The position numbers and the translations under genes are program-made. From positions 1 to 64,000 of IMG/VR virus record IMGVR_UViG_3300042291_000666: a stretch of DNA of 64,000 nucleotides. One strand, given 5' to 3'. The notes under the pieces were generated by a model. It was not told the origin of the DNA, ran no database searches, and saw nothing but the letters and a program-made list of their open reading frames with translations. The stretch is from a virus. The stretch's first letter is position 1, and each line of letters starts with the position of its first letter. Below, in pieces: positions 1-64,000 of the stretch.

Positions 1-860
1 AATAATGTGTAAGTTTCAATAGCGTCTGTGTTTTTCATCTCTTCCCAGTGCAGCAGGTTGATAGATCCTAAGCAACAAACAAATGAATTAAATGAATCTG
101 TTGGCAACTGAATCTCAGAACATAAATTGCTAGCAGTAATTTCAAGACCCAATTCTTTATAAGGAGTATTGTTATTTGAATTGTCCTTGAACATGATGTA
201 TGGAAAACCAAACTCATTACGTCTTTGGATTACTTTGGCCCATATTTTACGTTTGTCTCCATCACCAGCTTTCATTTCTTCAAGCCACTTGTCAGTTACT
301 GTAACACCATATTGTAGATTTTGTATTGGGTTTCCCTCAGTGCCAATATCTAAGAACTCTAAAGCATCTGCATGCTCTAATGGTAACCATACCGCGCATG
401 CTCCTCTTCTTGCTTCTGATTGTTTACATACATCTACTGTGGTATCATATAGTTTAGCATAATGTATTGGTCCATCTGCATGGCCCCCGGTTGAAATAAC
501 AGCACCTCTTGGTCTGATGTTACCCAAATAGACACTTGTCCCTCCGCCATACTTTGACATTAAACCAATCTCACGACCACCATTCAGGATACTATCTAAT
601 GAATCATCTACATTAGAACCATAACAACTAATAGGCAAACCTTTTTGTTTACCAAAGTTAATCCATACAGGAGTAGACAAACTATAAAATCCTCTGGCCA
701 TATAGTCTTCAAACTTCTGAGCAAACCCATCAATCTTTAAATACTTTTCAGCAATTGTTGCAATGTCTTTAATTCTTTGCTCCGGGGTTTCTGTTATATA
801 ACCTCTTGATAAAAAGGTGCGGCTATCTTCATTAAGCCAATAATATTTTTTATACTCCAT
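1..860 (-). CDS. nrdA: ribonucleotide reductase alpha subunit, class I (5' part, runs off the window edge)
   Basis: Not in the ORF track. Manual translation from the ATG at 860 gives MEYKKYYWLNEDSRTFLSRGY...TPVWINFG..GLPISC...KYGGGT...RRGA...ASNLCSEI (catalytic NLCxE motif). No N-terminal ATP cone; adjacent to nrdB. Confidence 0.95.
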   Translation of the reverse strand, partial: MEYKKYYWLNEDSRTFLSRGYITETPEQRIKDIATIAEKYLKIDGFAQKFEDYMARGFYSLSTPVWINFGKQKGLPISCYGSNVDDSLDSILNGGREIGLMSKYGGGTSVYLGNIRPRGAVISTGGHADGPIHYAKLYDTTVDVCKQSEARRGACAVWLPLEHADALEFLDIGTEGNPIQNLQYGVTVTDKWLEEMKAGDGDKRKIWAKVIQRRNEFGFPYIMFKDNSNNNTPYKELGLEITASNLCSEIQLPTDSFNSFVCCLGSINLLHWEEMKNTDAIETYTL

Positions 861-870
861 GTTTTTGTTA

Positions 871-1851
871 TTAAAATAAATCATCTTCTGTTATACTTTT
901 TCCTTTTTTGTTGTAATCAATTGATTTTTTATAGAAGAAATCACCCTCTTTGGTTGAAAGAATTTCAATATTAAACCATTGAGTTTTTTCAAGTAGTTCA
1001 TTATCAACCTCAAATAAGGCTTTCATACCTATGTTTTGTAGTGAGTTATTGAATCTGTCTTTAATAAAATGCTGTATTGTTTCTTTAGATAAGAAAGATA
1101 ACTCACCTTTTTCAAAGATCCAGTCTAGTATTTTGCACTCAGCTTCATAGGCTTTCTGACATGCAGAATCTATAAGTTGCTCAAACTCAGCATCAAACCA
1201 TTCAGGATTTTCTTTCTTAATGATATTAATTAGTTCAGCTCCAAAATTACCGTGGATCTCTTCTTCTTTACTTGTTGCCTCAACCACATTTGAGATACCT
1301 TTAAACAGGTTCTTTTCTTTGTTGAAAGACATCATAATTAAGAATTGACTAAACAAACTAACATGCTCAATGAATAAAGAAAATAAAAGTACTGATTTAG
1401 TGTACATCTTATTGTCTTTACTTCTGGTACCATCTAGGTATTTAGTAAGATATGCTATTCTATCTTTGATAGCGGGGATTTCTACTACGTGTTGGAACTC
1501 TTTTTCAAGACCCAAGATTCTAAGTAGTTGTGCATAGGCATCTTTGTGTCTTACTTCAGATTCAGCGAAGGTCATACCTACATCACCAATTTCAGTAATT
1601 GGCATTCTTTTATAAAGATCTGCCCAGAATGTTTTAACATTAACTTCAATTTGAGCAATTGCTAGCATGGACCTTTTGATCACTTCTCTTTCTTTAGAAT
1701 CAATTGTAATCTTAAAATCTTGGATATCTTCAGTAAAATTAAACTCAGTATGTATCCAATATGAGTGTCTGATAGCATCTTTATATGCTAATAATTGCGG
1801 GTATTCATACGGCAATATGTTTACCCGTGGTAAGAAAATGTTTTTGTTCAT
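871..1851 (-). CDS. nrdB: ribonucleotide reductase beta subunit, Flavobacterium-type (class Id-like)
   Basis: Ferritin-fold metal ligands AQIEVNVK, ESEVRH, IEHVSLFSQF, EEEIH; C-terminal KSITEDDLF. Confidence 0.95.
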   Translation of the reverse strand: MNKNIFLPRVNILPYEYPQLLAYKDAIRHSYWIHTEFNFTEDIQDFKITIDSKEREVIKRSMLAIAQIEVNVKTFWADLYKRMPITEIGDVGMTFAESEVRHKDAYAQLLRILGLEKEFQHVVEIPAIKDRIAYLTKYLDGTRSKDNKMYTKSVLLFSLFIEHVSLFSQFLIMMSFNKEKNLFKGISNVVEATSKEEEIHGNFGAELINIIKKENPEWFDAEFEQLIDSACQKAYEAECKILDWIFEKGELSFLSKETIQHFIKDRFNNSLQNIGMKALFEVDNELLEKTQWFNIEILSTKEGDFFYKKSIDYNKKGKSITEDDLF

Positions 1852-1928
1852 AAAATTGTATTTTTGAATTTTAAAGTTCTATGGAAGAACTTGATGGTAT
1901 ATATAATTTACTAAAAATAAAGGAAATT

Positions 1929-2123
1929 TTACTTACTATTATGCATATTTGCATAGCTAATGGTAAAAAATATAAAGCCTATTTCTAATCCAGTGACAAG
2001 ACGGTATCTGTCATCTTCACATAAAACTTCACAGTTTATAAGTTTAAGGCCAAGTATAGGTTCTGTTGGTAGAAATTCTACATTAAACCTATTTCTAAAA
2101 ATTAAAGGGTTGATTTTATTCAT
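1929..2123 (-). CDS. hypothetical small protein
   Basis: ATG-started ORF co-oriented with nrdB, upstream TATATTTG on the minus strand near 2204-2211. Confidence 0.55.
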   Translation of the reverse strand: MNKINPLIFRNRFNVEFLPTEPILGLKLINCEVLCEDDRYRLVTGLEIGFIFFTISYANMHNSK

Positions 2124-2227
2124 AATGAATTTTTGGTTTAAAAGATTAATTTATAAAATTATTTTTGTATATTATAAGTGTATAGCCAAGGGAATAACCT
2201 GGCAAATATAAGATATATATATTTATA

Positions 2228-9853: not shown

Positions 9854-12128
9854 TTATATGTTTTGACCAATATATTGGTCTTTTTTACTTTGATAAACCA
9901 CAAAGCAATCACTCTTTCTATAATCTCTAACAACTACTGTTACACCATCATGAAAGGTAGTCAACCAACAATATTTAGTATCATCTTTGGATATTCTTCC
10001 TTGATGAATAACATTTCCTACATACATTAGTGCTGCTGCAGGATCTATGTCATCTCTGACATCTATGATAATTCTACTCATTTTTTTTATTTTGTTTCCA
10101 GTCTAACCAAAATCCAAGGGCTACTATAAAGTTCATTCCTAAAGAAGCAATTATCTCTGTAATATCCTCATAGATTGAAGTCATTAGGTGGATATGACCA
10201 ATTGTCCAAAAAGGTATAGCCAAGTTCTGACTAATCCATATTATAGTAAATCTAAGGAATTTCATCTTTAAAAACTTTTATACAATAATCAGGTATATAG
10301 TATCCAACAACATAACCACAGTCAAACTTTTCACGGTATGTACCATATTCAATTGTCTCTTCTATATCCCCATCTCTAATAACTGTATCTCCTGGATACA
10401 AATCATTACCTTCTCTATCTTTTCCTACTGGTTTCATACTTTTAATTATTTATCCATTCCCATCCTAAGCATAGTTTCATCATTTTTCTATGGAGCCACT
10501 TTGGTTTGCTTACAAAATAAATTTTTAATCCAATATTTCCACCAATACAATAACAACCCACATAATTAGGTGTTTTAAAATTAATATGCATTTCTTCTTT
10601 GTTCATAATCCTTTTTCTTTTTTATAGAGTTGTAATAACTCTTTGGGTGTATAATCTTTTTCAAAAGTTGAAAATCTTTTATCTTGATTACCATACATAA
10701 TAGCATACTTTGATTTTTCATTTGTAAGCCATTCTAAAAAGTCAATAGTAAATAGATCAATAATCTTTAATACTTTACCAGTATGATTGTATAATTCAGG
10801 TTCATCATTATAACAATCCCAATATTGTGTATGAGGTCTGATTTGTTCTTCTAATGTCATAGCAACTTAATATTACGTTGTTTCATTTCTTCATCTAAAG
10901 ACTGATCAGGACTATAGATTTTAGCGCATTTGCCACAAATCATTGCTTCACCATCTTCAGTGTATGTATTTACATATTCACCTTCTTTTATGTATTTACT
11001 ACATGTATTACAATTACATGCGTTTGCTGTGCCACAATGTGGACAATGAAAAGCTCCCATCATAATTTTTTTTCTATAAATTCTATTACTTTCTCACACA
11101 TTTTAGATGCTGAGTAATCTCTACGTTCTGTTATTTCTGAATATAGAAAATCTAATATACGTTCTTGTTGCAATTTAGTAGCAAATATACCACCTCTTTT
11201 AAACCATTTAGCATTATATCCTGCACTAGCTTGATTAAAGTTATTTTGAGATGTTCTATACAAACCTTCTTTTGTAATTATATCCACTAGTGATTCTTGT
11301 TTATCAAAATCAATAAACTCATATGCATTAGATCTATTGGCCAATACTTCTTCTTTAGGAAGAACCTTTACTTCATGTTTCATTTCAAAAATATTTTAAG
11401 TGTTTTACCATCATCCTGGTACTGTAGTTCTACATCTTTAGCATTGTAGTTTGTATATGCTCTACCCATATGTGGTGGAGAATGTTGTATTACTTCCACT
11501 CTTGTTACTTTAGGAAGAATAAAAGTTGTTTCTAAACCTTCTGGTTTACATGTATCACAATATAAGTCTTGAGTCAACCCTGTAGATATTATTACACTAC
11601 ATTTATGACAAAGTGTGGCACCACGACCATTGTTAAGTTTATGTATTGGTTTCATAATCTTTTTTTTATTACATAACTGGCATTCCAAGTTGATCTTTTA
11701 GTTTTACTATCTCTCCATGGCCATGTCATTCTTGCTTTATGTATATTTTTATCAGCATAGTTTTTCCACCATAATATCATTTCCCAATATCTATCATCAT
11801 TACCATCTGGTGAATGCCAATGTATTGCAAACTGCAAATTAAAAAAGAATATCATAAATGACGGTGCCCATTCAAATCTAGGTGAGTTATATTTATCTTT
11901 CCATCCAAGATCATTAGAATGAAAAGCAATTGGCCAACCATATGCCACTTCATAACCAAACAGTTTAAAAGACTTACATCTTAAAAATTGAGGTTTTTTC
12001 TTTCTTATTGTTAGAATAGTAGAATTAAAATACCAAGGTGTAAAGTATGGTGTTCCATAAACTATTCTTCCAAAATAATACTTCTTTACTGGAGCTAGAA
12101 ATACTCCTTTAAAATCTTTTATTTTCAT
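9854..12128 (-). other. cluster of about nine small hypothetical phage ORFs (9854-10081, 10074-10265, 10252-10437, 10603-10860, 10857-11063, 11060-11383, 11380-11688, 11652-12128)
   Basis: Overlapping stop/start junctions on one strand; 10857-11063 and 11380-11688 carry CxxC zinc motifs. Confidence 0.7.
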
Positions 12129-12452
12129 TGCCTATAATGTTTTTAATCCACCATTTTTTGAATTTAGATGATTCAGGTAGAGTTATTACAAATCTATCCA
12201 TGATTACCATGCACATTGGAATTAATGCTCCAAGAATTAGTAAAATAATAAGTACATTCATTTTTAGTTTGTTTTTTTAGTTAATATATAAAAAGCAGTT
12301 AAAATTTCATTCCAGTGTTCAGCTAGCTTAAAATCTAAATCTACCAAGTATAAACATTGTAATATATGTTTTTCTCCGTCAGCTTCCCCCAGTTTAATAA
12401 AAATATGTTTTGCTTTTTCTTCTGTTGTTATACTCATTTTTTTAAAAGGTAA

Positions 12453-12476
12453 AGGGGATAGTTTTACCTATCCCCT
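12453..12476 (-). terminator. probable intrinsic terminator
   Basis: AGGGGATAG...CTATCCCCT stem with a T-rich tail on the minus strand. Confidence 0.55.
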
Positions 12477-12568
12477 GTTGGTTTACCTATATAATTATTT
12501 TGGATCATTTGTTAAGCACAAATAAAAGCATATAAAAGCAAATATAGCTACTAACAAAATCCACATAA

Positions 12569-13477
12569 TTAATCTTTCATTAAATAGACATCTTGTACTA
12601 ATCTAGAACGTGTTACATCTTCATCTATCTCAATGGCATTTTCATTCCATTCTTGCATAGTAATGTTTAAATCTACATCTTGTGTTGTATCAAACTCAGA
12701 TAAATCCAATGCATCATTCATTGTAATATTCATCTTTGATAAAACTCTGGCCGTCATAAAATCATGAAAGTTTTGGCTATCAGATAACCAATCTCTTGGA
12801 TGAGCTTTCTTTAATGCATGTGTAACGTGATTATAGAACGTCCAAGCATTTTCTTGATCACATTGGTAATCATATGATGGCTTTTCTAACTCAGCTTTAA
12901 CACAAGACATTTGTGCAGCATCAAGGATATCTTCATTGATATAAAGTCTACCTGCAATCTCTGCTTGTTCTTGTAATGATAATTCAGTATTTCTCATTGC
13001 ATCTCTATCAGTAAGGATACGTTTGTAATACTTCTCACCATTCTTGATCTGATTAGAAATTTGCATTCTAATATCATGATCAGCAGAACCAGTATGCTTT
13101 CTTCTAAAGTTCATCATGTCACCGGCCACCATACCATTATGGCAAACCATAACATATGCACCTATTGCGCATTGAAAACGTGTGCTCTTGTCATAAGAGT
13201 TTGTCCAGGCAAACATCATCCCTAACTCTTTCTCCTCCATAATAGTAGGATCAACGGTATTAATTGGTAAGATATGATATATGCCTTGTGCTACATTGGC
13301 ATCCATATTTGCTCTATATAATTCCTTTTGAATAACAAAACCACTATCTGCTAGCAGCTGTATTGTGTTATCTATCACCTGTTTATGTGATATAACTGTA
13401 TAACTTTTACCATGATTTGGTAAGGGTGCGTTTTCTAGGTAATTCCTAGTTGTTTCTTTTGGTTTATTATAACCCAT
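12569..13477 (-). CDS. DUF932/DUF945-like phage protein
   Basis: Y.VISH...NSYDKS..FQCAIGAYVMVCHNGM...RKHTG...WTFYNHVT pattern. Confidence 0.75.
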   Translation of the reverse strand: MGYNKPKETTRNYLENAPLPNHGKSYTVISHKQVIDNTIQLLADSGFVIQKELYRANMDANVAQGIYHILPINTVDPTIMEEKELGMMFAWTNSYDKSTRFQCAIGAYVMVCHNGMVAGDMMNFRRKHTGSADHDIRMQISNQIKNGEKYYKRILTDRDAMRNTELSLQEQAEIAGRLYINEDILDAAQMSCVKAELEKPSYDYQCDQENAWTFYNHVTHALKKAHPRDWLSDSQNFHDFMTARVLSKMNITMNDALDLSEFDTTQDVDLNITMQEWNENAIEIDEDVTRSRLVQDVYLMKD

Positions 13478-13701
13478 AGTATTAAACTTTTAAAGTGTAA
13501 ATGTACAAAAAATGTTTAGATAAACAATAAATAAATCTTAATTGTTTATATTTAATGCATTTGTAAGTGAATATGCATTAGAAGTACCACTTGTTAGAAA
13601 GGTATTTGCATTATTTGTACTACGAGTACTAAGTAATCCATTTCCAAAGTTAACTCCGGTGCTACCAGTAGTAATACTAGTATTGGAAAACACAGGAGTA
13701 C

Positions 13702-13902
13702 TTAAAAATTTCTGATTACAATTTGTACATTGTCAGGATTTGCAGCATGTTCTTCAGGAATTTCTCTTGTGATTTTAAATACAAGATCTTTTTCTGATTT
13801 AGCTAATACTGTGGTTGGTTCAATTATGATTTTTGAATCAACATAATTACCATCTTTGTCATTTTCATGCAAAATTACTGCATACTGAAATAAATTTTTC
13901 AT
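13702..13902 (-). CDS. small phage protein (66 aa) with a possible -1 frameshift extension to 13538
   Basis: ORF ends AGA AAT TTT TAA; the -1 frame stays open for 55 codons. Confidence 0.75.
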   Translation of the reverse strand: MKNLFQYAVILHENDKDGNYVDSKIIIEPTTVLAKSEKDLVFKITREIPEEHAANPDNVQIVIRNF

Positions 13903-13919
13903 TGTTACTTGGTTTTAAA

Positions 13920-14189
13920 TTATAATTCTTCTTGAAATTTTTTCTCCCATAACTGTCTTACAGTATAAGGATCTTGAATATAGTTATTCAATGCCGCCAT
14001 TCCTTCAGCTATTGTAGAAAATGGAATAGATTTACATCCTACCTCAATTAGGCATCCAACAGATAAAAATCTAATGTTTATTTGATATTCTCTAAGACAT
14101 TCCATTCTTGATGGTTTGTACTCTTTTACGCAACCAGTCATTTCTCTAAATGCTGGTTCTCTTTGTACTGCTTGATCTTCTTCTTTCAT
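13920..14189 (-). CDS. hypothetical protein
   Basis: ORF track; in operon. Confidence 0.65.
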   Translation of the reverse strand: MKEEDQAVQREPAFREMTGCVKEYKPSRMECLREYQINIRFLSVGCLIEVGCKSIPFSTIAEGMAALNNYIQDPYTVRQLWEKKFQEEL

Positions 14190-14357
14190 TTTGTTTAGTT
14201 TAATTGTTTAATACTATTACTTGCTAACTCATACTGCATTCTATTTGAATTAGTATTTTTCATTTTAGTAATTGTTGAGTGATAGATCTTAGAAATTTCT
14301 TTTTTGCTTTCAAGATTTTCTAAAATACTTTCAGTGCTTGATTTGTAAAATTGTTTT

Positions 14358-14660
14358 TTATTCATTTTTTACAAATTGACCATCAACCATTTTACCGGTT
14401 CTCTTACTAATCACATTGTATGCTGACTCAAGGCATTCTTCCAAAGATAATCCTTGCATTTTTGCTTGAATAATCAATGTAACCATAATGTCCCCAATAG
14501 CATCAATGATCTCAGGTCTATCATTTTTGTTGATTGCTGTACATAATTCTGTACATTCTTCTAATGTTTTTAGTGCTTGAGCCATTGGTGTAGCTTTCTC
14601 TAAAATACCTTTGTCTGCAGCCCATTGTTCTACAACGGCTTCTAATTCAAAATAGTCCAT
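14358..14660 (-). CDS. MazG-like nucleotide pyrophosphohydrolase
   Basis: KTLEECTEL...IIDAIGDIMVTL...AYNVISKRTGKMVDGQFVK. Confidence 0.9.
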   Translation of the reverse strand: MDYFELEAVVEQWAADKGILEKATPMAQALKTLEECTELCTAINKNDRPEIIDAIGDIMVTLIIQAKMQGLSLEECLESAYNVISKRTGKMVDGQFVKNE

Positions 14661-14661
14661 G

Positions 14662-15012
14662 TTAATTTCTTTTGTTTTGTATTAAGTAATAAATTTCTTC
14701 CCAAGTTTTGGGTAATCCCATTAAACACTTATCATCTATATAGATGTCTGCAGAAATCTTTCTACAGTCTTGTTTATACAGTTTAATAAGTTCAGGGCAA
14801 TTGCTGTTTATATAGTGGTATTTGATACCATGGTAATCTAAGAAGTCTTGTGCTAATCCTTCATACTTACCAGTTCTGCAGGTGTTAATGATTATAGTGT
14901 GTCCTTCATTATAGAGAATGTTAATGTAGGTATCCGCATCTTTTCTTAATGGTCCTACTTCAGGCCAAGATAATTCAGCTATGGTTCCGTCAAAGTCAAT
15001 TGCTAATATCAT
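14662..15012 (-). CDS. HAD-family phosphatase (BT0820-like)
   Basis: AIDFDGT, INTCR, RKISADIYIDDK. Confidence 0.85.
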   Translation of the reverse strand: MILAIDFDGTIAELSWPEVGPLRKDADTYINILYNEGHTIIINTCRTGKYEGLAQDFLDYHGIKYHYINSNCPELIKLYKQDCRKISADIYIDDKCLMGLPKTWEEIYYLIQNKRN

Positions 15013-15425
15013 TAATCAGGTACAATTATATTATTAATATCTCTGTATTCCAACTCCTGGACAATTATTTTCTCAAACCACGGTTCTATTCTACCTCCCA
15101 TATCTTTAATAATGTTTGCCAGGTGATCATTAGACATTTCTTCTACTGATTTGTATGATAAAGGTGACCTACCATCTTTACCTCTGTTACCCCAATGTGC
15201 AGCTGATCTGTTCATCATATGATCCTCTGATAGATATATTGTAGAACTTCTGTCAACTAAATCAAGGTCTTTACCTCCATAACGTTGATATGCTGTTCCA
15301 CCATCCACCATTGTTTCATTCTCACAATCACATGTTTTGTAATCATGTCTATTGTAAGATATTAGAACTTCACCACAGTTTTTACATTGTATCCTGTTCA
15401 GTACTATTTGTTCCAGTCCGTTCAT
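15012..15425 (-). CDS. zinc-binding phage hypothetical protein
   Basis: NRIQCKNC...HDYKTCDC...VDGG. Confidence 0.7.
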   Translation of the reverse strand: MNGLEQIVLNRIQCKNCGEVLISYNRHDYKTCDCENETMVDGGTAYQRYGGKDLDLVDRSSTIYLSEDHMMNRSAAHWGNRGKDGRSPLSYKSVEEMSNDHLANIIKDMGGRIEPWFEKIIVQELEYRDINNIIVPD

Positions 15426-15905
15426 AATTAATTATTTTTTTTAAATGTTTGTACATTCTGTTTCCAAAGCACCATGGGCAGGGACCATTGTTTCTACATT
15501 GATGACTTACGGCTTTGGCCCCGGTTAGTTTCTTTTTAATAGTCCTACTCATAATGAATCAGTTTAATTTAATTCTATAACCCCATTTAGATGCAGCCAT
15601 ATAAGTTTCAAAATAACAATCTTGCCAGTAATATATCATTTTACCAGCTACACGGTCATAAAAACCAACTCTTGTAGTTTTGACCATTGTAAACCTACTT
15701 ATTATATTTTTTATCATGATTTTTTCTTTTTTTTGTCTTGAAAAACAAGGGGTTTATGTGCAGCTTTTTTATAGGTTCTTTGCCAATTATAAACTTGTGA
15801 ATCTTCATCACAGGTTAAAACTTTTATAGGTTTATTTTTCATGTTATTATCTATCATGTAATTTAACCTTTTTAAATTTCTTTGTGCTTTAGGACTTAAC
15901 ATAAC

Positions 15906-16328
15906 TTATCTATCACAGTCAACAAATGATTCTGGGTACTCTTTTAATGCTTCAAGATACTCTTTTATCCAAGGAACAAAATTATGATACATTCCCCAAC
16001 CATTTGGACTATTAAATGTCTCATAATGTTTGGGTCTTGCTAGCATATCTTCTAAACCTTTTTCAATAATAGGAATTATTTCATATGCTCTTACAGGATT
16101 AGCTTCTTCAAACTTATACTCAGCATCATGATCACCTTCAGGAATGTTATATCCTTCTTTTAATTGATAAGGTCTCCACAGTGCTTCATACAATCCTGCT
16201 TCACCGGCCATTTTACCTAGATTATGTGTAATGTTTGCACTATACACATCCTCTTGCTTTTCTTCTAATGTTTTACCTCCATCATAACTTACGTGATAAT
16301 TTCTATACAATGTTACGTCTAAACTCAT
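15906..16328 (-). CDS. conserved phage hypothetical protein
   Basis: MSLDVTL..SANITHNLGKMA...NGWG pattern. Confidence 0.7.
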   Translation of the reverse strand: MSLDVTLYRNYHVSYDGGKTLEEKQEDVYSANITHNLGKMAGEAGLYEALWRPYQLKEGYNIPEGDHDAEYKFEEANPVRAYEIIPIIEKGLEDMLARPKHYETFNSPNGWGMYHNFVPWIKEYLEALKEYPESFVDCDR

Positions 16329-16494
16329 ACTTTTTCTAATTTTAATTTAAATTTGGTTCCATCAGCAGTTTCTATCACACCGTTTGAATCAATGTTTTTA
16401 ACTACTTTATAAATATCCACATGTCTAATCTTTAAAGATTCACATATAGCTGCTCTACAAGTATGGCCAGCTATTCCGTTTAATTTGTATGAGT

Positions 16495-17172
16495 TCATAT
16501 CAACTCTTCTAGTACAAGAATTTCTCTTACCTTTTTTACAAGTTCTTCCATAGTACCATCATTGATGATTTCATAATCAAACTTAGCTTTGTCAAGAGAT
16601 GTTTCTGATGGATGTAATCTTGCAGTGTTTTTACCTTTTTCAGCAGGTCTTGTTACTCTAATAGTAATACCATGTCTTTTTTCAACAGCTTCCATTTCAT
16701 TAGGAAATCTCATGTCAGTAATAATCCAATTAGGATATTCTTTTTCAAGAGATACCTCATCTTCTTCAATGGTATTCCCTGTAGGAACCCATTTAGCTTT
16801 ATAATCTGCAAACAAAGCATTTACCCATACATTTGTATGTAAACCTTCACGCATTGCTTCTGTACCAAGTCTTTGAAGAAACTCTCTTACACTCATCATA
16901 ACATTAAACTGCATGTCAGCAAATGGTGGTATTGAATTAAGTGGTACATCTTGTACTGTGCCCCATTCAACATCTAAAAGAGTTGTCTTAAATTCCTGGT
17001 CTTCAAACTTTAGTACAGGAATGCCTGTAAGTATTGAAGCAATTTGTTTTAGTTTGCCTGCAAACTTTTTAATTTCAGAAGATTGATTTTTGTTTGTCAA
17101 AAGCAATCCTTGAATGATTGTGCCAATAGTATCTTTTCCAGATCCCATACGGCCTGATATTCCTATAATCAT
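16495..17172 (-). CDS. deoxynucleoside monophosphate kinase
   Basis: GISGRMGSGKDT, REFLQRLGTE, ITDMRFPNE, HPSE. Confidence 0.92.
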   Translation of the reverse strand: MIIGISGRMGSGKDTIGTIIQGLLLTNKNQSSEIKKFAGKLKQIASILTGIPVLKFEDQEFKTTLLDVEWGTVQDVPLNSIPPFADMQFNVMMSVREFLQRLGTEAMREGLHTNVWVNALFADYKAKWVPTGNTIEEDEVSLEKEYPNWIITDMRFPNEMEAVEKRHGITIRVTRPAEKGKNTARLHPSETSLDKAKFDYEIINDGTMEELVKKVREILVLEELI

Positions 17173-17462
17173 TGTGGTGGTTTTTTAAATTTTGGACTAC
17201 AACCTAATAGTATACCTCTTGACACAGCTTCTCTACGCCATTTAGGTAACTTAGATTCTTTTAGATGTCTCTTGACAATCTCTTCATATATTTCTTGATC
17301 AATTACATAATCATTGTATGGAATAATCTTTTGACCCCGCTCATTTAATTCAGCAGATTCAAGTAAATAATTCCAACTCACAGATGGTTCTGACACAGCA
17401 TACAACTCTGTATATATGCTGGTCATAACATCTTCTATTTTTTTATCTAGTGTTTTAGTCAT
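17169..17462 (-). CDS. hypothetical protein
   Basis: ORF track; 4-nt overlap with the kinase gene. Confidence 0.65.
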   Translation of the reverse strand: MTKTLDKKIEDVMTSIYTELYAVSEPSVSWNYLLESAELNERGQKIIPYNDYVIDQEIYEEIVKRHLKESKLPKWRREAVSRGILLGCSPKFKKPPQ

Positions 17463-17466
17463 AATC

Positions 17467-44815: not shown

Positions 44816-44847
44816 ATGATATAAACATAACTCAAATAAAAAAACTA

Positions 44848-45519: not shown

Positions 45520-45520
45520 T

Positions 45521-46220: not shown

Positions 46221-46237
46221 CTTTAAAAATTAAAATT

Positions 46238-46411: not shown

Positions 46412-46413
46412 TC

Positions 46414-46521: not shown

Positions 46522-46552
46522 TATCAATTTTCCTATTGAAGGATTATGATTA

Positions 46553-46810
46553 ATGTGTATGAGAGAAATTGATTTAATTAAACTAGGGTTTCAACGTTTT
46601 GATGAAAGCCCTGAATCCAGCGGAAGCCCACAACCTTGGTACTATTATGCTAAGGATGTTGGAAAGGTTGGCTTCTTATCCTGCGATAGTGATTCAGATG
46701 AAGCTAAAGCTGGTAAGTGGAGTGTTGATGTTTTAGACGGAGATATTGTTTTTACAAAAGCGTCAGAACTGAAAACCGTAATTGCTTTATTAGAAAAAAA
46801 TAAAATCTAA
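46553..46810 (+). CDS. hypothetical protein
   Basis: ORF track. Confidence 0.6.
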   Translation: MCMREIDLIKLGFQRFDESPESSGSPQPWYYYAKDVGKVGFLSCDSDSDEAKAGKWSVDVLDGDIVFTKASELKTVIALLEKNKI

Positions 46811-46891
46811 AAAATAAGTCCATTAAACTTTTTTTATTTAAACTATTATTATATATTTGTAATATATTGTTTAACTTAAAAAATAACAAAA

Positions 46892-47200
46892 ATGGCAAAT
46901 GCAAAAACCAACAATCCTTTAGATGAAAAGGAACCAATCCTTACTAAAGAAGAATTGAATGCACGTAGAGAAGAAATCAGTGCATTCTACAAAGACAATA
47001 TTCCACATTTAGAAGTACAAGCAGAGTATGAGATGCTTTTGGCTACTATTGAGAAATCAAGAGCTGAAAGATTGCAGGCTCAAATGTATATGGCACAAGC
47101 CTATGCTTCTCAAAAAGAAGGTGGACAAGTACCTGTTGATTCAGAAGAAGCAAAAGCTTTTAAAGAAGCAATGGAAAATGCTGCATCTCAAATTGACTAA
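46892..47200 (+). CDS. hypothetical helical protein
   Basis: ORF preceded by TATATTTG at about 46852. Confidence 0.7.
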   Translation: MANAKTNNPLDEKEPILTKEELNARREEISAFYKDNIPHLEVQAEYEMLLATIEKSRAERLQAQMYMAQAYASQKEGGQVPVDSEEAKAFKEAMENAASQID

Positions 47201-47203
47201 ACA

Positions 47204-48127
47204 ATGAAGATGCTAAAAAGGGGGGATTCTGGACCAGATGTCCAGACCCTCCAATCCAAACTCTTATTAAAGCAGGATGCACAGTTTGGACCCGCAACAG
47301 AAAAAGCTGTAATCAGATTCCAACTATCTAATAATCTGCCAGTTACAGGAATAGTAGACTCAGATATGTGGACATTGTTATTTAACAAAGTACCTACATT
47401 ACAAGAAGCTATTGATGAAGACTCGGATGTATCTCAACAGTTATTTAAAACTAATTTTGATCAGACAATTCATAAGTATTATTTATCTCCAAAAGAATAT
47501 ATCAAAGGACCAATTAAAAATGAATATATATTCTTACATCACACTGCAGGAAATAACAATCCTTTTGCTTGTGTTGATATGTGGAATAAAGATGACAGAG
47601 GAGCCATTGGAACTGAATTTGTTTTAGGTGGTAAAAACTGCCACAATGGAGATGCTAAATATGATGGTAGAATGGTTCAAGCTTTTCCAACAGGAAATCA
47701 AGGTTGGCATTTAGGTTTAACTAAATCAGGTTGGATGAATAGACACTCTGTAGGTTTAGAAATCTGCTGTATGGGTCAACTTACTAAAGATTATAAAACC
47801 TATGTAGGAACCAAGGCTCATCCAGATGAAGTAACAACTTTAAAGGAAGTATTCAGAGGATTTTTAAATTGGCATTCTTATTCAGAGAAGCAAATTAAAG
47901 AAACTGAAAAGTGGATTAAGTATGTTGCTGAAAGAGACAGTATTGATGTAAGATTAGGATTGAAACAATTAATACAAAAGTACGGTGCAACTAAAGCATT
48001 TGAATATAATGAAGATGCAGCTACTGGAAAAATTAAAGGATTACTAACCCATACCAATGTAAGAAAGGATAAGTTTGATTGTTATCCACATCCTGACTTA
48101 GTTGATATGATAATGAGTTTAAAATAA
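47204..48127 (+). CDS. endolysin: peptidoglycan-binding domain plus N-acetylmuramoyl-L-alanine amidase
   Basis: LKRGDSGPDVQTLQ..FGPATEKAVIRFQ..L.VTGIVD; LHHTAG, GWHLG, SVGLEIC, TH..RKDK.DC.P. Confidence 0.92.
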   Translation: MKMLKRGDSGPDVQTLQSKLLLKQDAQFGPATEKAVIRFQLSNNLPVTGIVDSDMWTLLFNKVPTLQEAIDEDSDVSQQLFKTNFDQTIHKYYLSPKEYIKGPIKNEYIFLHHTAGNNNPFACVDMWNKDDRGAIGTEFVLGGKNCHNGDAKYDGRMVQAFPTGNQGWHLGLTKSGWMNRHSVGLEICCMGQLTKDYKTYVGTKAHPDEVTTLKEVFRGFLNWHSYSEKQIKETEKWIKYVAERDSIDVRLGLKQLIQKYGATKAFEYNEDAATGKIKGLLTHTNVRKDKFDCYPHPDLVDMIMSLK

Positions 48128-49167: not shown

Positions 49168-49431
49168 ATGACAGTATCACAAATAGTAAGAGATCTTTTA
49201 GAACATAATATGATTACTATGGAAGCAGCAACAGTTCTATTAAATGCAGAAATTAAAGCTGATATGTTGGATAAGAGAAATACTAATCAAGTATTTCAAC
49301 CTTACCATGGAGTACCAAATGGAAGTACAACAAATCCTTATTATGTTTCTACAACCACTAATGATCCTATACTTGGAACTAGTACTTCAGGATTAAGTGC
49401 TGGAGCAAATGAACTTTTAAAAGTAAAGTAA
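49168..49431 (+). CDS. hypothetical protein
   Basis: ORF track. Confidence 0.6.
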   Translation: MTVSQIVRDLLEHNMITMEAATVLLNAEIKADMLDKRNTNQVFQPYHGVPNGSTTNPYYVSTTTNDPILGTSTSGLSAGANELLKVK

Positions 49432-50243
49432 TGGCTATTATATTTAAAGAAGATGGACATACTTATGAAAGTATAGAAGAAGATAACATTGAATGGATAA
49501 GTGTTACTTCACTGGTTGGTAAGTTCAAACCTAAGTTTGATAAAGAAGGGCAAGCTAAAAAATCTGCAAAGAATAAAAATTCTAAGTGGTATGGCATGAC
49601 TGTAGAACAAATACTACAGGCTTGGGATAATGAAACAGAAAGAGCTATTAATCTTGGTAACTTCTATCACAATCAAAGAGAATCTGACATGCTTGATTTT
49701 AAAACCATTGAGCGTAATGGAACTGAAGTACCTATTATCAAACCACTTGTGAATGATGAGGGTATAAAATTAGCACCTGAACAAAAGTTATCTGATGGTG
49801 TTTATCCTGAGCATTTAGTTTATTTAAAGTCTGTTGGTCTTTGTGGCCAAGCTGACGTAGTAGAAATTGTAGATGGTTATATTAACATCAATGATTACAA
49901 GACTAATAAGGAGATTAAAGAAAAAGGATATACCAATTGGGAAGGTATTACAAGTAAAATGTTTAAGCCAGTCAATCATTTAGATGATTGCAATTTAAAC
50001 CATTATTCATTACAGCTCAGTATTTATGCGTATATTATTAAGAAGCACAACCCTTCTTTGAAGATTGGTAAACTTACAATTCAACATGTTAAGTTTAAAC
50101 AGATTGGTGAAGATGAAAATGGTTATCCAATAAATGAACATTATAACGGTGAGCCTATCTTAGATGAAATAAAAATGTATGAAGTCCCATATTTAAAGGA
50201 TGAAGTTAATTCATTAATAATGTGGTTAAAAGATAACAAATAA
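49431..50243 (+). CDS. PD-(D/E)XK nuclease
   Basis: SVTSL, G...H, E..V....GQAD....I.DYKT, Y.LQL..Y. Confidence 0.88.
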   Translation: MAIIFKEDGHTYESIEEDNIEWISVTSLVGKFKPKFDKEGQAKKSAKNKNSKWYGMTVEQILQAWDNETERAINLGNFYHNQRESDMLDFKTIERNGTEVPIIKPLVNDEGIKLAPEQKLSDGVYPEHLVYLKSVGLCGQADVVEIVDGYININDYKTNKEIKEKGYTNWEGITSKMFKPVNHLDDCNLNHYSLQLSIYAYIIKKHNPSLKIGKLTIQHVKFKQIGEDENGYPINEHYNGEPILDEIKMYEVPYLKDEVNSLIMWLKDNK

Positions 50244-59384: not shown

Positions 59385-59537
59385 ATTGTTAAGCTCCGCA
59401 CCTCAGCTCTGGCCCTTCGGGGTCATCTGGGGGGCGTCTTAGCAATACTGTGATAGGTTGGCCCATATCTCTATTCTGTGTGCATTGACAAGGGATGTCT
59501 AGCATGCTGGGGCCAGCTGATTCACTTTATTTTTTTT
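59385..59537 (+). ncRNA. candidate structured RNA or attenuator downstream of the capsid gene
   Basis: GC-rich island with two long hairpins, one capped by cUUCGg, followed by a T-tract. Confidence 0.55.
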
Positions 59538-62151: not shown

Positions 62152-62235
62152 TTGGAAATTAAAAACTTTTGCTTATATTATATGTGTACACGTAGTACAA
62201 ATTTATATATTTATTAATAACAAAAAACAAAAATT

Positions 62236-63699
62236 ATGGCTTATTTTAATCATGCGTTTTACAAAACGTTTGTTGCTACATCAACCCAAGCGTCAGCTGG
62301 AGTAGCAACCTCAGCATTAACTGCTGGTCAGCTTGGTTTAGTTACTGATGCATCATGGCAAACAATTGCTATTGCTGGTGGTACTTTACCTGCTAACTCA
62401 TTAGCTTATCTTGTACAAGGTAGCTACTACACTAAAGATACTATTGGAAACAATCCAGGTAACGGTGGTTACAAGGAATCTGTTAAATCAAAAGGTATCA
62501 ATCCTAAATTCATCTCAAGAGCATGGGTTACTAACTGTTTATTGGCTCAACAATCTACTGCGTCTTTATCATTAGGACCTGATTGTGCTCCATGTGGAAA
62601 AACTCAGTTCATGAGAATTGATGTTAAAGGTTCTCCAACATTACGTTTCTTAAATCACAATGCTTATTCTATTGGTGATAGTGCAAACATTTGTTGTGTA
62701 GGTGATCAAGAATTTTTAGATCCAGCATTAGTTTCGGCTACTATGGCTCAAATGGTTCTTGCTAATCCTTTAATTACTCCATTTGTTGCTGAAGGTGACG
62801 TTGATGGTGTTGCTACTGCTACATTAGCTGGTGGTTCTGGATATTCTGTTGCTTCTGGTGTTGCTACTACTGGTGGTTCTGGATCAGGTTTTAAAGTTAA
62901 TATTTTAACTGTATCTTCTGGTGCTATTGCTACTTATAGTGTTGCTGCACGTGGTGCTGGATATGTTGTAGGTGATGTATTAACAGTTGCTGGTGGTACT
63001 GGTGGAACTTTCACAGTTACTGCTCTTACTGCAGGTGGTGTTGTAATTACTGCAACTACTGGTGCTGTAAGTGTACAGTCTGTTTACACTATTGCTCAAA
63101 CTTTAGGTACAGCTGCTTCTGGAAACTATGTTCCTTCACTTGATCCTAATGGTACAACTAAAGTTAGTGCTACAGTTAATTTTGTAGGAGCTTATGTTGA
63201 TACTAAATTTGGTAACTGTTCATTTGATACTAGAGATCATTTTAACGCTGAACCTGTAGTTATCATTGCTTCTATCCTTGATGAAACTGGAAATCCATGT
63301 AATGATTGTGGTGTTGCTACAAGCACTCCTGGTCAAATGCAACAAACTCAAGGTGAAAATGTAGTTAGAGATTTAATCTTATCTGAAAGATACAGACAAT
63401 CTCCTTTCAATCAAGGAAATGCAGATAGTGCAAGAATTAGAGAGATTGAGATGTCAGATGAAATCTTAGCTGCTGTTGATAGATCTGCTACTTATAAAGC
63501 ATATTATATCCAACATACTGTTCCAAGATTCAACAACCCAAGTGGTGTGTTTGACAATGATCAATATGTTTACCAAGTATATGTTAAATGTTCTGACACT
63601 GCTGCTAACACTGCTGTATTAGCATTGGTTAACAAAGTGGTTGCTTTAGCAAATGCTGCTGGTAATAACATTGCATTAGAAACTAACTCTTACTGGTAA
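62236..63699 (+). CDS. virion structural protein (auxiliary capsid-like)
   Basis: MAYFNHAF start, A/G/T-rich, PRFNNPSGVFDNDQY; own promoter-like motif and terminator. Confidence 0.7.
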   Translation: MAYFNHAFYKTFVATSTQASAGVATSALTAGQLGLVTDASWQTIAIAGGTLPANSLAYLVQGSYYTKDTIGNNPGNGGYKESVKSKGINPKFISRAWVTNCLLAQQSTASLSLGPDCAPCGKTQFMRIDVKGSPTLRFLNHNAYSIGDSANICCVGDQEFLDPALVSATMAQMVLANPLITPFVAEGDVDGVATATLAGGSGYSVASGVATTGGSGSGFKVNILTVSSGAIATYSVAARGAGYVVGDVLTVAGGTGGTFTVTALTAGGVVITATTGAVSVQSVYTIAQTLGTAASGNYVPSLDPNGTTKVSATVNFVGAYVDTKFGNCSFDTRDHFNAEPVVIIASILDETGNPCNDCGVATSTPGQMQQTQGENVVRDLILSERYRQSPFNQGNADSARIREIEMSDEILAAVDRSATYKAYYIQHTVPRFNNPSGVFDNDQYVYQVYVKCSDTAANTAVLALVNKVVALANAAGNNIALETNSYW

Positions 63700-63734
63700 T
63701 CAATATACCTTAAGAGGTTGATTTTTTAAAAATT

Positions 63735-63771
63735 AAGAGTAGGAGTCAAAAACTCCTGCTCTTTTTTTTTT
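63735..63771 (+). terminator. intrinsic terminator
   Basis: AAGAGTAGGAGT-CAAAA-ACTCCTGCTCTT followed by a T-run. Confidence 0.85.
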
Positions 63772-63827
63772 CTTTATTCTAATTTTTTTGTATATTGTAT
63801 ATATAGTGTATCAAAATAAATATCAAA

Positions 63828-64000
63828 ATGGCTGACAAACATATATTAAGCTTAGAAATACCAACAGTATCTAACTGTAATCTTTTATGTATTAAAGATA
63901 CTAGTCAGTATTCTTCAGAACTTGCTGTTGATTGTGAAGAATTATTAATCACACTTCCTGGCTTTACCGTACCTGTGTTACTTAAAGTAACAAAAGGTTT
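63828..64000 (+). CDS. virion protein, 5' part (runs off the window edge)
   Basis: Manual translation MADKHILSLEIPTVSNCNLLCIKDTSQY...ITLPGF; open to the window end. Confidence 0.7.
   Translation, partial: MADKHILSLEIPTVSNCNLLCIKDTSQYSSELAVDCEELLITLPGFTVPVLLKVTKG

What the first reader, a model, noticed from the sequence alone, without database searches (positions are those of the whole stretch)
1..64000. Strong window-wide avoidance of CGA/TCG; both tRNA T-loops also lack it
Seen: scanning by eye, CG dinucleotides are almost always in ACG/GCG/CCG and CGT/CGC/CGG contexts. In the first 5 kb I found no TCG and three CGA among roughly 35 CGs, although A/T flanks should dominate in such AT-rich DNA. 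I noticed no TCGA anywhere. Both tRNAs carry T-loop TTCAAAT rather than the more common TTCGAAT, which fits avoidance outside coding sequence, although TTCAAAT does occur naturally. Inference: selection against a very short target of a host restriction or toxin system, or a self/non-self scheme in which a phage nuclease cuts host DNA at a motif purged from its own genome (the window encodes two PD-(D/E)XK nucleases and an HNH protein).
Basis: partly seen in the sequence, partly recalled or inferred. Interest (0 to 1): 0.7.

Follow-up and report, generated by a model that had tools for sequence, protein, structure and literature searches.

The report
Phage genome purged of TCG
A 118-kb crAss-like phage from lake water, and most of its uncultured relatives, have removed about 99% of the three-letter DNA word TCG (CGA on the other strand) by silent changes, which points to a still unidentified enzyme that attacks DNA at a three-base target.

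Summary
The window is the first 64 kb of a complete 118,325-bp crAss-like phage genome. TCG plus CGA occur 23 times, against about 2,000 expected from base composition, about 405 from a first-order Markov model, and 12 versus 627 off-frame after synonymous-codon shuffling. TCGA is absent.

The loss affects all three codon phases and intergenic DNA. Other CpG contexts stand at about half of expectation, as in cultured distant relatives.

All 80 relatives fetched by terminase show the depletion to some degree (ratio 0 to 0.63), and the relaxed state arose several times. Candidate hosts (Bacteroidia) and five cultured distant relatives show no TCG-specific loss.

The substitution spectrum and codon-phase pattern argue for selection on the word, not C-to-T hypermutation. 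TCGA is depleted beyond the product of its two half-words.

Best reading: escape from a DNA-attacking, perhaps nicking, activity with a three-base target, more likely the host's than the phage's own. The phage nucleases are conserved in strict and relaxed lineages alike, and no methylase was found.

The scan reported the same purge before on related DNA (e1-5956616, e1-5956620). This genome shows no whole-genome strand asymmetry.

The parts
1..64000 (.). Window-wide (and genome-wide) purge of 5'-TCG-3' on both strands: 6 TCG, 12 CGA and 0 TCGA among 384 CG
38553..47500 (.). Poorly conserved block of small genes around the strand-divergence point. It holds 7 of the genome's 23 residual TCG/CGA in 7.6% of its length. 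In intermediate relatives the residual words cluster in the DNA upstream of the lysis and terminase genes (the position that corresponds here was not mapped).
9854..43438 (-). Minus-strand replication-gene block. All 7 residual TCG lie on the coding (-) strand and none on the template strand (Markov expectation 46 vs 68, binomial p = 0.0017).
49431..50243 (+). 270-aa PD-(D/E)XK (RecB/Cas4-like) exonuclease-family protein, two genes upstream of the terminase. It is a candidate phage nuclease, but it is conserved with intact motifs in strict and relaxed lineages.
20541..21545 (-). 334-aa PD-(D/E)XK protein (PDDEXK_1/DUF3799; PHROG exonuclease VIII) in the replication and recombination module
37144..37230 (-). 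tRNA-Leu(TAA) with T-arm GGTTCAAATCC (no TCGA)
37354..37428 (-). tRNA-Arg(TCT) with T-arm GGTTCAAATCC (no TCGA)
59412..59425 (+). One retained TCG inside GCCCTTCGGGGTC, just after the major capsid gene. The context suggests a C(UUCG)G tetraloop hairpin, probably kept for function.
   Evidence: not folded here (lead from note e1-6147748)
31927..32661 (-). Uracil-DNA glycosylase superfamily protein (context only). The phage carries a uracil repair function but no recognisable DNA methylase or cytosine deaminase.

Best explanation
The word 5'-TCG-3', read on either strand, is a liability for this phage's DNA and has been removed by natural selection, almost entirely through synonymous and flank changes.

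The most likely agent is an enzyme that attacks DNA at a three-base asymmetric target, for example a frequent-cutting nickase or another lethal DNA-modifying activity. I judge it more likely to be made by the host as a defence, with the host protecting its own sites by modification, than by the phage.

Each site would add a small, roughly multiplicative risk. That fits three observations: genomes drift towards zero sites without having to reach it, newly acquired genes still carry the word, and lineages that leave that host slowly refill.

Shown: the depletion, its independence from codon usage, its restriction to the phage clade, its lability, and the extra loss of TCGA.

Inferred: that an enzyme is the agent, that it nicks, and that it is the host's.
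For: 1. Size and independence from coding. TCG+CGA occur 23 times against 2,000 (zero order) or 405 (Markov-1). Off-frame they occur 12 times against 627 after synonymous shuffling, and the loss appears in every codon phase and in intergenic DNA.

2. Both words are lost about equally on the coding strand across 82 related loci: TCG 266 of 2,153 expected and CGA 376 of 3,262 expected. The target is therefore DNA, not mRNA.

3. Selection on the word rather than CpG decay.
- CCGG is at 1.1 of zero-order expectation.
- Codon classes in which both CpG transitions change the protein are purged as well: T|CGN 4 vs 60.8, and the CGA codon 1 of 146 CGN.
- T-ending codons before CGN were replaced mainly by C-ending ones (xxC|CGx 33 vs 10.5).
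- Words aligned to relatives' TCG are no richer in transitions than those aligned to ACG (TCA+TTG 222 vs TCT+TAG 137; ATG+ACA 1,201 vs AAG+ACT 501).

4. TCG sites are transient. Of the TCG in relatives, 10 of 571 are also TCG in this genome. For ACG the figure is 1,897 of at least 4,764.

5. The trait belongs to the clade and not to the hosts.
- All 80 terminase relatives have ratios of 0 to 0.63.
- 78 cellular loci have 0.74 to 1.33.
- A Flavobacteriales bin that holds a related phage contig has 0.87 to 1.01.
- 29 Bacteroidia rpoB loci have 0.59 to 1.12.
- Five cultured distant relatives have 0.80 to 1.12.

6. The trait is labile. Relaxed rows are scattered over the terminase tree, with at least five sister pairs of strict versus relaxed. 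This is what a host-dependent pressure would give.

7. The same genome shows classic restriction-site avoidance: GAATTC 0 vs 55 expected, GGTACC 10 vs 49, GGATCC 8 vs 30 (both-strand counts). It has no match to three DNA methylase families, a cytosine deaminase family or thymidylate synthase/dCMP hydroxymethylase. This fits unmodified DNA that relies on having no sites.

8. TCGA is rarer than TCG x CGA predicts: 2 vs 9.5 in intermediate and 17 vs 36.7 in relaxed lineages (P = 0.004 and 0.0002). In cellular loci it is near expectation, 3,499 vs 3,846. This fits nicks on both strands at one place making a double-strand break.

9. Enzymes with three-base asymmetric targets exist: Nt.CviPII ^CCD and Nt.CviQII R^AG (PMC3017599, passages).
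Against: - No enzyme with TCG specificity is known to me or was found in print in my searches.
- The host is unknown, so neither host modification nor a host nuclease could be examined.
- The extra loss of TCGA could equally come from a separate TaqI-like system.
- A test for a deficit of closely spaced opposite-strand sites found nothing: outside TCGA, pairs within 20 bp numbered 9, 11, 10 and 15 for the four orientations. Numbers are too small to decide.
- A three-base target would occur about every 50 bp in an unadapted phage. It is hard to see how the lineage first survived such an enzyme unless the hit probability per site is low.
- A host that methylates cytosine at every TCG might be expected to lose TCG itself. 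The cellular genomes sampled show little loss, with a median ratio of 0.87.
Confidence: 0.5

Rival explanations
1. The agent is the phage's own. A phage nuclease shreds host DNA at TCG, which occurs about every 50 bp in candidate hosts, and the phage is immune because its genome has almost no sites and needs no methylase. The nuclease could be the PD-(D/E)XK domain inside the 1,930-aa protein encoded next to the 4,502-aa protein, or the 270-aa paralogue beside the terminase.
For: - There are three PD-(D/E)XK domains with intact D...D/E-x-K...Q-x-x-x-Y motifs.
- The domain in the giant protein is kept in 19 of 19 relatives.
- No DNA methylase was found in a genome rated complete.
- The phage has ribonucleotide reductase and a dNMP kinase, as expected if it recycles host nucleotides.
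- The sampled candidate hosts are rich in TCG.
- A phage nuclease with a three-base preference is known: T4 endonuclease IV prefers 5'-TCA-3' in single-stranded DNA (PMC1635256, abstract).
Against: - Both nucleases are present with unchanged catalytic motifs in relaxed lineages (ratios 0.3 to 0.63) as well as strict ones. Presence or absence does not track the trait.
- They match exonuclease families of the RecB/Cas4/RecE kind, not restriction enzymes.
- That the giant protein is packaged and injected is assumed from gene order only.
- 23 sites remain in the genome.
- Acquiring such a nuclease before the purge would be suicidal.
Confidence: 0.2
2. The loss is mutational. The C of TCG is hypermutable to T, through 5-methylcytosine, an enzymatic deaminase, or sunlight-induced T=C dimers that deaminate fastest before G (the last point is recalled, not checked). 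The word decays, with at most second-order selection against a hazardous site.
For: - TG/CA are in excess (O/E 1.23) and CG is low.
- TCG sites turn over fast.
- Differences of the TTG/TCG kind among close relatives are 15 to 30 times rarer per site than ATG/ACG, CTG/CCG or GTG/GCG. A very short lifetime of TCG would also give this.
- Free virions cannot repair damage.
Against: - Codon classes where both transitions are non-synonymous are purged as strongly (T|CGN 4 vs 60.8; C|GAN 3 vs 304.8).
- There is no transition excess among replacements of TCG.
- CCG is the best-kept context (O/E 1.9), although C=C dimers and methyl-CpG should also decay.
- Escape is often by changing the flank and keeping the CpG.
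- Cellulophaga phages isolated from 1-m seawater show no TCG loss (ratios 1.12 and 0.88).
- Hosts show none.
- No methylase or deaminase was found in the phage.
Confidence: 0.08
3. TCG is the protospacer-adjacent motif of a host CRISPR-Cas system, and the phage has removed potential protospacers.
For: A three-base motif counted on both strands, a graded cost per site, and strong dependence on the host lineage all fit.
Against: - A 50- to 90-fold loss is far beyond any PAM depletion I know of (recalled).
- The extra loss of TCGA is not expected from additive PAM counts.
- A search of 401 Bacteroidia genomes with 19 kb of conserved phage DNA gave only short weak matches. The two best short ones that I inspected (L230, L237) do not lie in repeat arrays. 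I did not inspect the others.
Confidence: 0.07
4. The loss is the sum of avoidance of several ordinary palindromic restriction sites that contain TCG or CGA (TCGA, TTCGAA, ATCGAT, CTCGAG, GTCGAC, TCGCGA, CGATCG).
For: TCGA is absent and is depleted beyond its half-words in relatives. The genome clearly avoids some 6-bp palindromes.
Against: TCGT/ACGA (13), TCGG/CCGA (7) and TCGC/GCGA (3) are all about 20- to 50-fold rarer than ACGT (276), ACGG (158) and ACGC (125), counting both strands. Residual sites show no further flank rule except the absence of A after TCG. Palindromes cannot account for this.
Confidence: 0.03
5. Codon usage, translation or an mRNA-level nuclease explains the pattern.
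For: CGA and TCG are rare codons here, 1 and 4 uses.
Against: Off-frame and intergenic depletion is as strong. Both the word and its reverse complement are lost on the sense strand.
Confidence: 0.02

Closest known systems
Restriction-site avoidance in virulent dsDNA phages (survey: Rusinov et al. 2018, PMC6286503; abstract read)
   Same: A phage with apparently unmodified DNA loses a short word on both strands far beyond compositional expectation. The loss is graded and specific to the lineage. The same genome also avoids GAATTC, GGTACC and GGATCC.
   Different: According to that abstract, the known cases concern mostly orthodox Type II sites, which are 4-8 bp palindromes. Here the word is three bases long and asymmetric, no enzyme with this specificity is known, and the host is unknown. 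I could not see that paper's supplementary tables.
Frequent-cutting nicking endonucleases of chlorella viruses, Nt.CviPII (^CCD) and Nt.CviQII (R^AG) (PMC3017599; passages read)
   Same: These are natural enzymes with three-base, non-palindromic targets. A TCG nickase would explain strand-symmetric loss, a graded cost per site and the extra loss of TCGA.
   Different: Those viruses carry cognate methylases (M.CviQII is named in that paper's reference list; the rest is recalled). This phage has no recognisable methylase, and no such nuclease gene was identified here.
T4 endonuclease IV (denB), a dC-specific single-strand endonuclease that prefers 5'-TCA-3' (PMC1635256; abstract read)
   Same: It is a phage-encoded nuclease with a three-base preference that discriminates self from non-self DNA.
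   Different: T4 protects itself by replacing cytosine with glucosylated hydroxymethylcytosine, not by losing the word. Here no thymidylate synthase/dCMP hydroxymethylase family match exists. A denB homologue was not searched for.
SspABCD-SspE phosphorothioate defence (PMC9646914 and PMC8092258; abstracts in the search listing)
   Same: It is a host defence whose self-mark sits in a three-base motif (5'-CpsCA-3') on one strand, and whose effector nicks phage DNA.
   Different: The motif is CCA, not TCG. As far as I know (recalled), phages have not been reported to purge it.
CpG-poor genomes of other Bacteroidota phages, e.g. Flavobacterium phage FPSV-S29 (MK764449.1)
   Same: These are low-GC crAss-like phages with few CpG. 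CG O/E is 0.08 in 27 kb of FPSV-S29 and 0.39-0.64 in four others. This matches the 0.49 found here for CpG outside TCG/CGA.
   Different: In those phages the shortage has no flank rule, with TCG ratios of 0.80-1.12. Here the T-flanked context is lost 30- to 50-fold more than the rest.

Membership tests
Restriction-site avoidance (orthodox Type II) | The word is significantly under-represented against a compositional null | tested here: met
   23 vs 405 (Markov-1); 12 vs 627 off-frame after codon shuffle
Restriction-site avoidance (orthodox Type II) | The avoided word is a 4-8 bp, usually palindromic, recognition site | tested here: not met
   All of TCGN and NCGA are lost, not only palindromes (NCGN table; flanks)
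Restriction-site avoidance (orthodox Type II) | The host carries an enzyme with that specificity | not testable with these tools
   The host is unknown. No spacer-like link was found in the two short matches inspected, from a search of 401 Bacteroidia genomes.
Methyl-CpG / deamination-type CpG depletion | All NCG contexts are depleted and losses run through transitions | tested here: not met
   CCGG is at 1.1 of expectation. The transition share for TCG is no higher than for ACG. Non-synonymous-only classes are equally purged.
Host genomic signature copied by the phage | The host genome shows the same bias | tested here: not met
   Ratios are 0.74-1.33 in 78 cellular loci, 0.87-1.01 in a Flavobacteriales bin and 0.59-1.12 in 29 Bacteroidia loci. 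The true host is unknown, so this holds for the groups sampled.
Virus-encoded nicking or restriction system with cognate methylase (chlorovirus type) | The virus genome encodes the methylase | tested here: not met
   PF00145, PF01555 and PF02086 have no match in six frames of the complete genome
Virus-encoded nicking or restriction system with cognate methylase (chlorovirus type) | The virus genome encodes a sequence-specific endonuclease | tested here: inconclusive
   There are three PD-(D/E)XK domains, all matching exonuclease-type families. Specificity cannot be read from sequence.
T4-type self-protection by cytosine replacement | A dCMP hydroxymethylase or thymidylate-synthase-family enzyme is present | tested here: not met
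   PF00303 has no match. A dNMP kinase is present, but that is not specific.
crAss-like phages (Crassvirales in the wide sense) | crAss-type terminase, portal, capsid and tail ring proteins | tested here: met
   PHROG terminase, portal and head families. Best cultured terminase hits are crAss-like phages at 24-26% identity. Pfam CrAss_Ring_1 matches above cut-off. Formal family placement was not tested.

The most novel reading that the evidence does not exclude
The phage tells self from host by the absence of a word, with no chemical mark. In this reading it brings or makes a PD-(D/E)XK nuclease that nicks DNA at TCG. The candidate is the domain inside the 1,930-aa protein next to the 4,502-aa protein, assumed to be injected. 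The nuclease shreds the TCG-rich host chromosome for nucleotides, and the phage survives because its own 118 kb carries only 23 sites and no TCGA.
Probability: 0.17. Interest if true: 0.85.

Novelty: new variant of a known kind. Interest (0 to 1): 0.62.

Why it matters
A 99% loss of a three-base asymmetric word, achieved by silent changes across a widespread clade of uncultured aquatic phages, implies a DNA-targeting activity with a specificity shorter than any restriction enzyme in common knowledge. That activity has not been identified.

Whether it is a host defence or a phage weapon, it would be a new kind of enzyme, and possibly a useful frequent nickase. It would also show that phages can escape even very short targets by recoding.

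The signature is also practical. Modification of TCG in long-read methylomes of lake Bacteroidota could identify the unknown hosts. The graded loss gives a clock for host switches within the clade.

Tried and rejected
Host-copied signature: rejected for the groups sampled.

Codon usage, translation or an mRNA nuclease: rejected.

Sum of palindromic sites: rejected.

Simple CpG deamination: disfavoured.

Sunlight hot spot: disfavoured. CCG is kept, and two seawater Cellulophaga phages show no loss.

The count is 7 vs 16 against 195 vs 209 expected, p about 0.10. Only the minus-gene block is asymmetric, 0 vs 7, p = 0.0017, with the template strand cleaner. Across 82 loci, minus-strand genes have 79 coding-strand TCG vs 55 CGA, and plus-strand genes have 300 vs 385.

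Nuclease presence or motif loss tracking relaxation: not found.
- The 270-aa nuclease is seen in all 56 loci that reach far enough upstream. The 19 loci without any hit have at most 1,481 bp before the terminase, and five more show truncated hits.
- Motifs are identical in 57 of 57 rows.
- The giant-protein domain is intact in 19 of 19.

Deficit of close opposite-strand site pairs: no signal, with numbers too small.

Host link by DNA search of 401 Bacteroidia genomes: 131 genomes gave short weak matches. I inspected two (L230, L237) and neither is in a repeat array. One genome (G171) holds a distant terminase relative with normal TCG, ratio 0.99 in 3 kb.

TAnnTTTG, the Bacteroidota -7 motif (recalled, and named in a scan note): 134 vs 112.6 expected, with 1 of 100 shuffles reaching it. 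This is too weak to assign a host.

PDB sequence search with the two nuclease sequences: nothing meaningful.

Megablast of 5 kb against cultured phages: no match.

RNR-beta tblastn against phages returned mostly Staphylococcus phages and gave no help with the host.

Terminase tree: only 40 of the 81 available terminase sequences were used. Forty loci were dropped because my crude cutting of the best tblastn segment gave in-frame stops, and L075 was dropped for coverage below 0.9.

Literature searches found no report of TCG/CGA avoidance in phages in the open library searched. A search for marine crAss-like Flavobacteriia papers found nothing.

I did not use read laying, structure prediction, the protein-representative search or the complex predictor.

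Full report
WHAT THE DNA IS

The window is bases 1-64000 of a single-contig virus record of 118,325 bp. The record is rated complete and has a 127-bp terminal overlap. GC content is 31.5%.

PHROG families identify a large terminase, a portal, a major head protein and a family-A DNA polymerase. Pfam adds these:
- ribonucleotide reductase beta
- a dNMP kinase
- a DnaG-type primase
- a DnaB-type helicase
- a UDG-superfamily protein
- an SNF2-type helicase
- a ParB-N protein
- two PD-(D/E)XK proteins in the window
- outside the window, a crAss tail ring protein

The nearest cultured phages by terminase are crAss-like phages of Bacteroides and Flavobacterium, at 24-26% identity. By portal they are a Leptolyngbya phage (32.6%) and Cellulophaga phages (26.5%). 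There is no close cultured relative.

Near-identical DNA (69-99% of sampled words) is held by 20 runs from 9 studies, labelled lake water, freshwater, drinking water and estuary. Three of these runs may be the source sample. This genome is therefore a freshwater phage. Earlier scan notes on related genomes call theirs marine.

THE OBSERVATION

In the window there are 384 CG (O/E 0.24), 6 TCG, 12 CGA and no TCGA.

In the whole genome there are 639 CG and 23 TCG+CGA. The expectation is 2,000 from base composition and 405 from a first-order Markov model.

The both-strand NCGN table is decisive:
- ACGT 276, ACGG 158, ACGC 125, CCGG 162, CCGC 87, GCGC 54
- ACGA 13, CCGA 7, GCGA 3, TCGA 0

A T before CG, or equivalently an A after it, lowers the count 30- to 50-fold. 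CCGG stands at 1.1 of zero-order expectation.

CpG outside TCG/CGA stands at 0.49 of expectation. That is the ordinary level for low-GC phages of this wider group, which have CG O/E of 0.39-0.64 in four cultured distant relatives. The 'strong CpG depletion' is therefore a normal background multiplied by a specific purge of one flank context.

NOT CODON USAGE

I called 120 ORFs covering 92% of the genome. I then shuffled synonymous codons 200 times, keeping proteins and codon usage. Off-frame counts are:
- TCG 3 vs 192 and 4 vs 60.8
- CGA 2 vs 69.6 and 3 vs 304.8

Direct codon-context controls say the same:
- a C-ending codon precedes Asp/Glu codons 3 times in 4,461, against 594 in 5,243 before Asn/Lys codons
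- a T-ending codon precedes CGN arginine 4 times in 146, against 419 in 1,032 before AGR arginine
- G follows NTC 3 times in 622, against 1,549 in 4,120 after NTT
- A follows NCG 2 times in 201, against 1,296 in 3,736 after NCA

Intergenic DNA has 6 TCG among 104 NCG.

Both tRNA T-arms read GGTTCAAATCC.

A TRAIT OF THE CLADE, NOT OF THE HOSTS

All 80 IMG/VR loci fetched by terminase similarity (75-98% identity) have CG O/E of 0.07-0.48 and a TCG Markov ratio of 0-0.63. Another 19 loci fetched with the giant-protein nuclease domain have ratios of 0-0.44.

Over 82 related loci (80 terminase loci plus two RNR-linked contigs), off-frame TCG is 266 of 2,153 expected and CGA is 376 of 3,262 expected on the coding strand. 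Word and reverse complement are lost alike, which places the target in DNA.

Cellular DNA is different.
- 78 loci around RNR-beta homologues have ratios of 0.74-1.33. They include low-GC Flavobacteriaceae bins.
- Three 20-kb pieces of a Flavobacteriales bin that also holds a related phage contig have 0.87-1.01.
- 29 rpoB loci drawn from 121 Bacteroidia genomes have 0.59-1.12 (one flagged genome left out).

Five cultured distant relatives have 0.80-1.12. The true host is unknown, so 'not in the host' holds only for the groups sampled.

SELECTION OR MUTATION

Four results favour selection on the word itself.

1. Some codon classes cannot lose the CpG by a transition without changing the protein: a CGN arginine after a T-ending codon, and the CGA codon. 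They are purged as strongly as classes with a silent route.

2. Escape often keeps the CpG and changes the flank. C-ending codons before CGN are 3.1 times the shuffle expectation, while A- and G-ending ones are 1.4-1.5 times. CCG is the best-kept context.

3. Where a relative has TCG, this genome has TCA 141, TCT 86, TTG 81, TAG 51, CCG 25, ACG 15, TCC 11 and TCG only 10, out of 571. The transition share is no higher than for ACG.

4. TCG sites are not conserved, whereas ACG is kept in 1,897 of at least 4,764 cases.

Among the closest relatives (about 8-12% nucleotide divergence), TTG/TCG differences per TTG site are 0.0025, against 0.038-0.074 for the other three contexts. A very high decay rate and selection both predict that last result, so it does not separate them.

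A damage-prone word removed by second-order selection cannot be excluded. It would still need an agent that hits phage DNA and not host DNA.

LABILITY

On a terminase tree of 40 rows, relaxed and strict rows are sisters at least five times:
- L078 0.42 / L076 0.00
- L052 0.49 / L066 0.00
- L079 0.46 / L063 0.14
- L071 0.34 / L074 0.08
- the L011-L018 group at 0.29-0.63, next to this genome's group at 0-0.19

Forty-one loci were dropped from that tree, as told under Tried and rejected.

In the most relaxed loci TCG has returned inside core genes such as terminase and portal. In intermediate loci it clusters in the variable small-gene region upstream of the lysis and terminase genes.

In this genome, 7 of the 23 sites lie in 38553-47500, which is 7.6% of the length and holds genes shared with few relatives. 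None lies in 79450-111000.

TCGA

Given the TCG and CGA counts of each locus, TCGA is expected 9.5 times in intermediate loci and 36.7 times in relaxed loci. It occurs 2 and 17 times (P = 0.004 and 0.0002). In 78 cellular loci it occurs 3,499 times against 3,846 expected, and in cultured relatives it is near expectation.

Two readings fit. One is a separate TCGA-specific restriction system. The other is a strand-specific attack at TCG that becomes a double-strand break where the word sits on both strands at once.

A test for a shortage of other closely spaced opposite-strand pairs found nothing, but only about 45 pairs were available.

STRANDS

Here the whole genome gives 7 vs 16 against 195 vs 209 expected (p about 0.10).

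In the minus-gene block all 7 sites are on the coding strand (p = 0.0017). In the large plus-gene block the split is 6 vs 5.

Across the clade, minus-strand genes also keep more coding-strand TCG than CGA (79 vs 55), and plus-strand genes barely differ from expectation (300 vs 385). If anything, the template strand is cleaner. Damage that blocks transcription would give that, but the effect is modest.

THE PHAGE'S OWN ENZYMES

The two window nucleases are the 334-aa protein at 20541-21545 and the 270-aa protein at 49431-50243. They match exonuclease families: PHROG exonuclease VIII and exonuclease, and weakly Cas4.

A third copy of the same domain lies at residues about 440-560 of a 1,930-aa protein (genome 111448-117240), next to a 4,502-aa protein with no family match.

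The 270-aa gene is present wherever the locus reaches far enough upstream. It keeps its H..D..D-Y-K..Q-x-x-x-Y motifs in 57 of 57 rows, with ratios from 0 to 0.63. The giant-protein domain is intact in 19 of 19 relatives, including three relaxed ones. Neither therefore tracks the trait.

The supposed HNH protein is a DUF2201 metallopeptidase-VWA protein, and Pfam HNH has no match.

No C5, N4/N6 or D12 methylase, cytidine/dCMP deaminase, or thymidylate-synthase-family enzyme is found in six frames. Of the 120 ORFs, 43 proteins were scanned with Pfam and 34 with PHROGs, and the two sets overlap.

The genome also avoids GAATTC (0 vs 55), GGTACC (10 vs 49) and GGATCC (8 vs 30), as both-strand counts. 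The GAATTC loss is confined to this genome and its nearest relatives. This is ordinary evidence that the DNA is exposed to restriction enzymes.

CONCLUSION

The evidence supports selection against 5'-TCG-3' in DNA by an activity with a three-base asymmetric target. Natural nickases with such short targets exist (Nt.CviPII ^CCD, Nt.CviQII R^AG; PMC3017599). A host defence with a three-base single-strand mark and a nicking effector is known (Ssp; listing abstracts). A phage nuclease with a three-base preference is known (T4 endonuclease IV; abstract). None of these has TCG specificity.

I favour a host enzyme (0.5) over a phage enzyme (0.2) for four reasons:
- the trait is labile
- it varies independently of the phage nucleases
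- the same genome shows ordinary restriction avoidance
- unchecked scan notes report TCG/CGA purges in other phages, one limited to an early-entering block (e1-5360372)

Searches of the open literature found no report of this avoidance. The scan itself reported it twice before on related genomes (e1-5956616, e1-5956620).

Noticed in passing
whole genome (window 1-64000 included): The EcoRI site GAATTC is absent, 0 vs 55 expected as both-strand counts. GGTACC is 10 vs 49 and GGATCC is 8 vs 30. The GAATTC loss is shared only with the nearest relatives (L003 and L008 have none), so it looks like recent, lineage-specific restriction avoidance.
   Followed up: partly
L193 (Flavobacterium phage FPSV-S29, MK764449.1, 1-27459): This cultured crAss-like phage of F. 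psychrophilum has CG O/E of 0.08 in 27 kb with no flank rule (TCG ratio 1.10). It is a near CpG-free genome of a different kind from the TCG purge. I found no paper on it in one search.
   Followed up: partly
genome 111448-117240 (outside the window; L163:13948-19740): A 1,930-aa protein carries an internal PD-(D/E)XK domain (residues about 440-560). It matches the same PHROG exonuclease family (phrog_298) as the 270-aa nuclease at window 49431-50243, and it is conserved in 19 of 19 relatives. It lies next to a 4,502-aa protein with no family match.
   Followed up: partly
clade loci, strict vs relaxed groups: In strict lineages GCGC (0.45) and CGCG (0.51) are also below their Markov expectation. 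In relaxed lineages they are at 1.23 and 1.25. CCGG and ACGT are near 1 in both groups. A second, weaker avoided context may travel with the TCG purge.
   Followed up: no
window 46208-46262 and 46825-46914: Many Bacteroidia genomes gave 40-70 bp matches of 75-90% identity to these two short stretches, near the start of the gene at 46892. The search covered 401 genomes. The cause is unknown; it could be a shared regulatory or leader element, or compositional chance.
   Followed up: no
window 24993-26153 (-): PHROGs labels this ORF 'HNH endonuclease' (phrog_1314). Pfam reads it as a DUF2201 metallopeptidase plus VWA-like domain, next to an AAA+ ATPase at 23710-24981. The PHROG name looks misleading.
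   Followed up: yes
L082 (contig WLWP01000004.1, 114,697 bp): This is a near-full-length relative of the phage (RNR-beta 84% identical, TCG ratio 0.21, GC 32%). It is filed in a bin labelled Pseudomonadales whose chromosome has GC 51% and normal TCG. It is probably mis-binned.
   Followed up: partly
window 57760-59376 and relatives: The major head protein is far more conserved across the clade than terminase or portal: mean 94.6% identity in 37 loci, against 82-83%.
   Followed up: no
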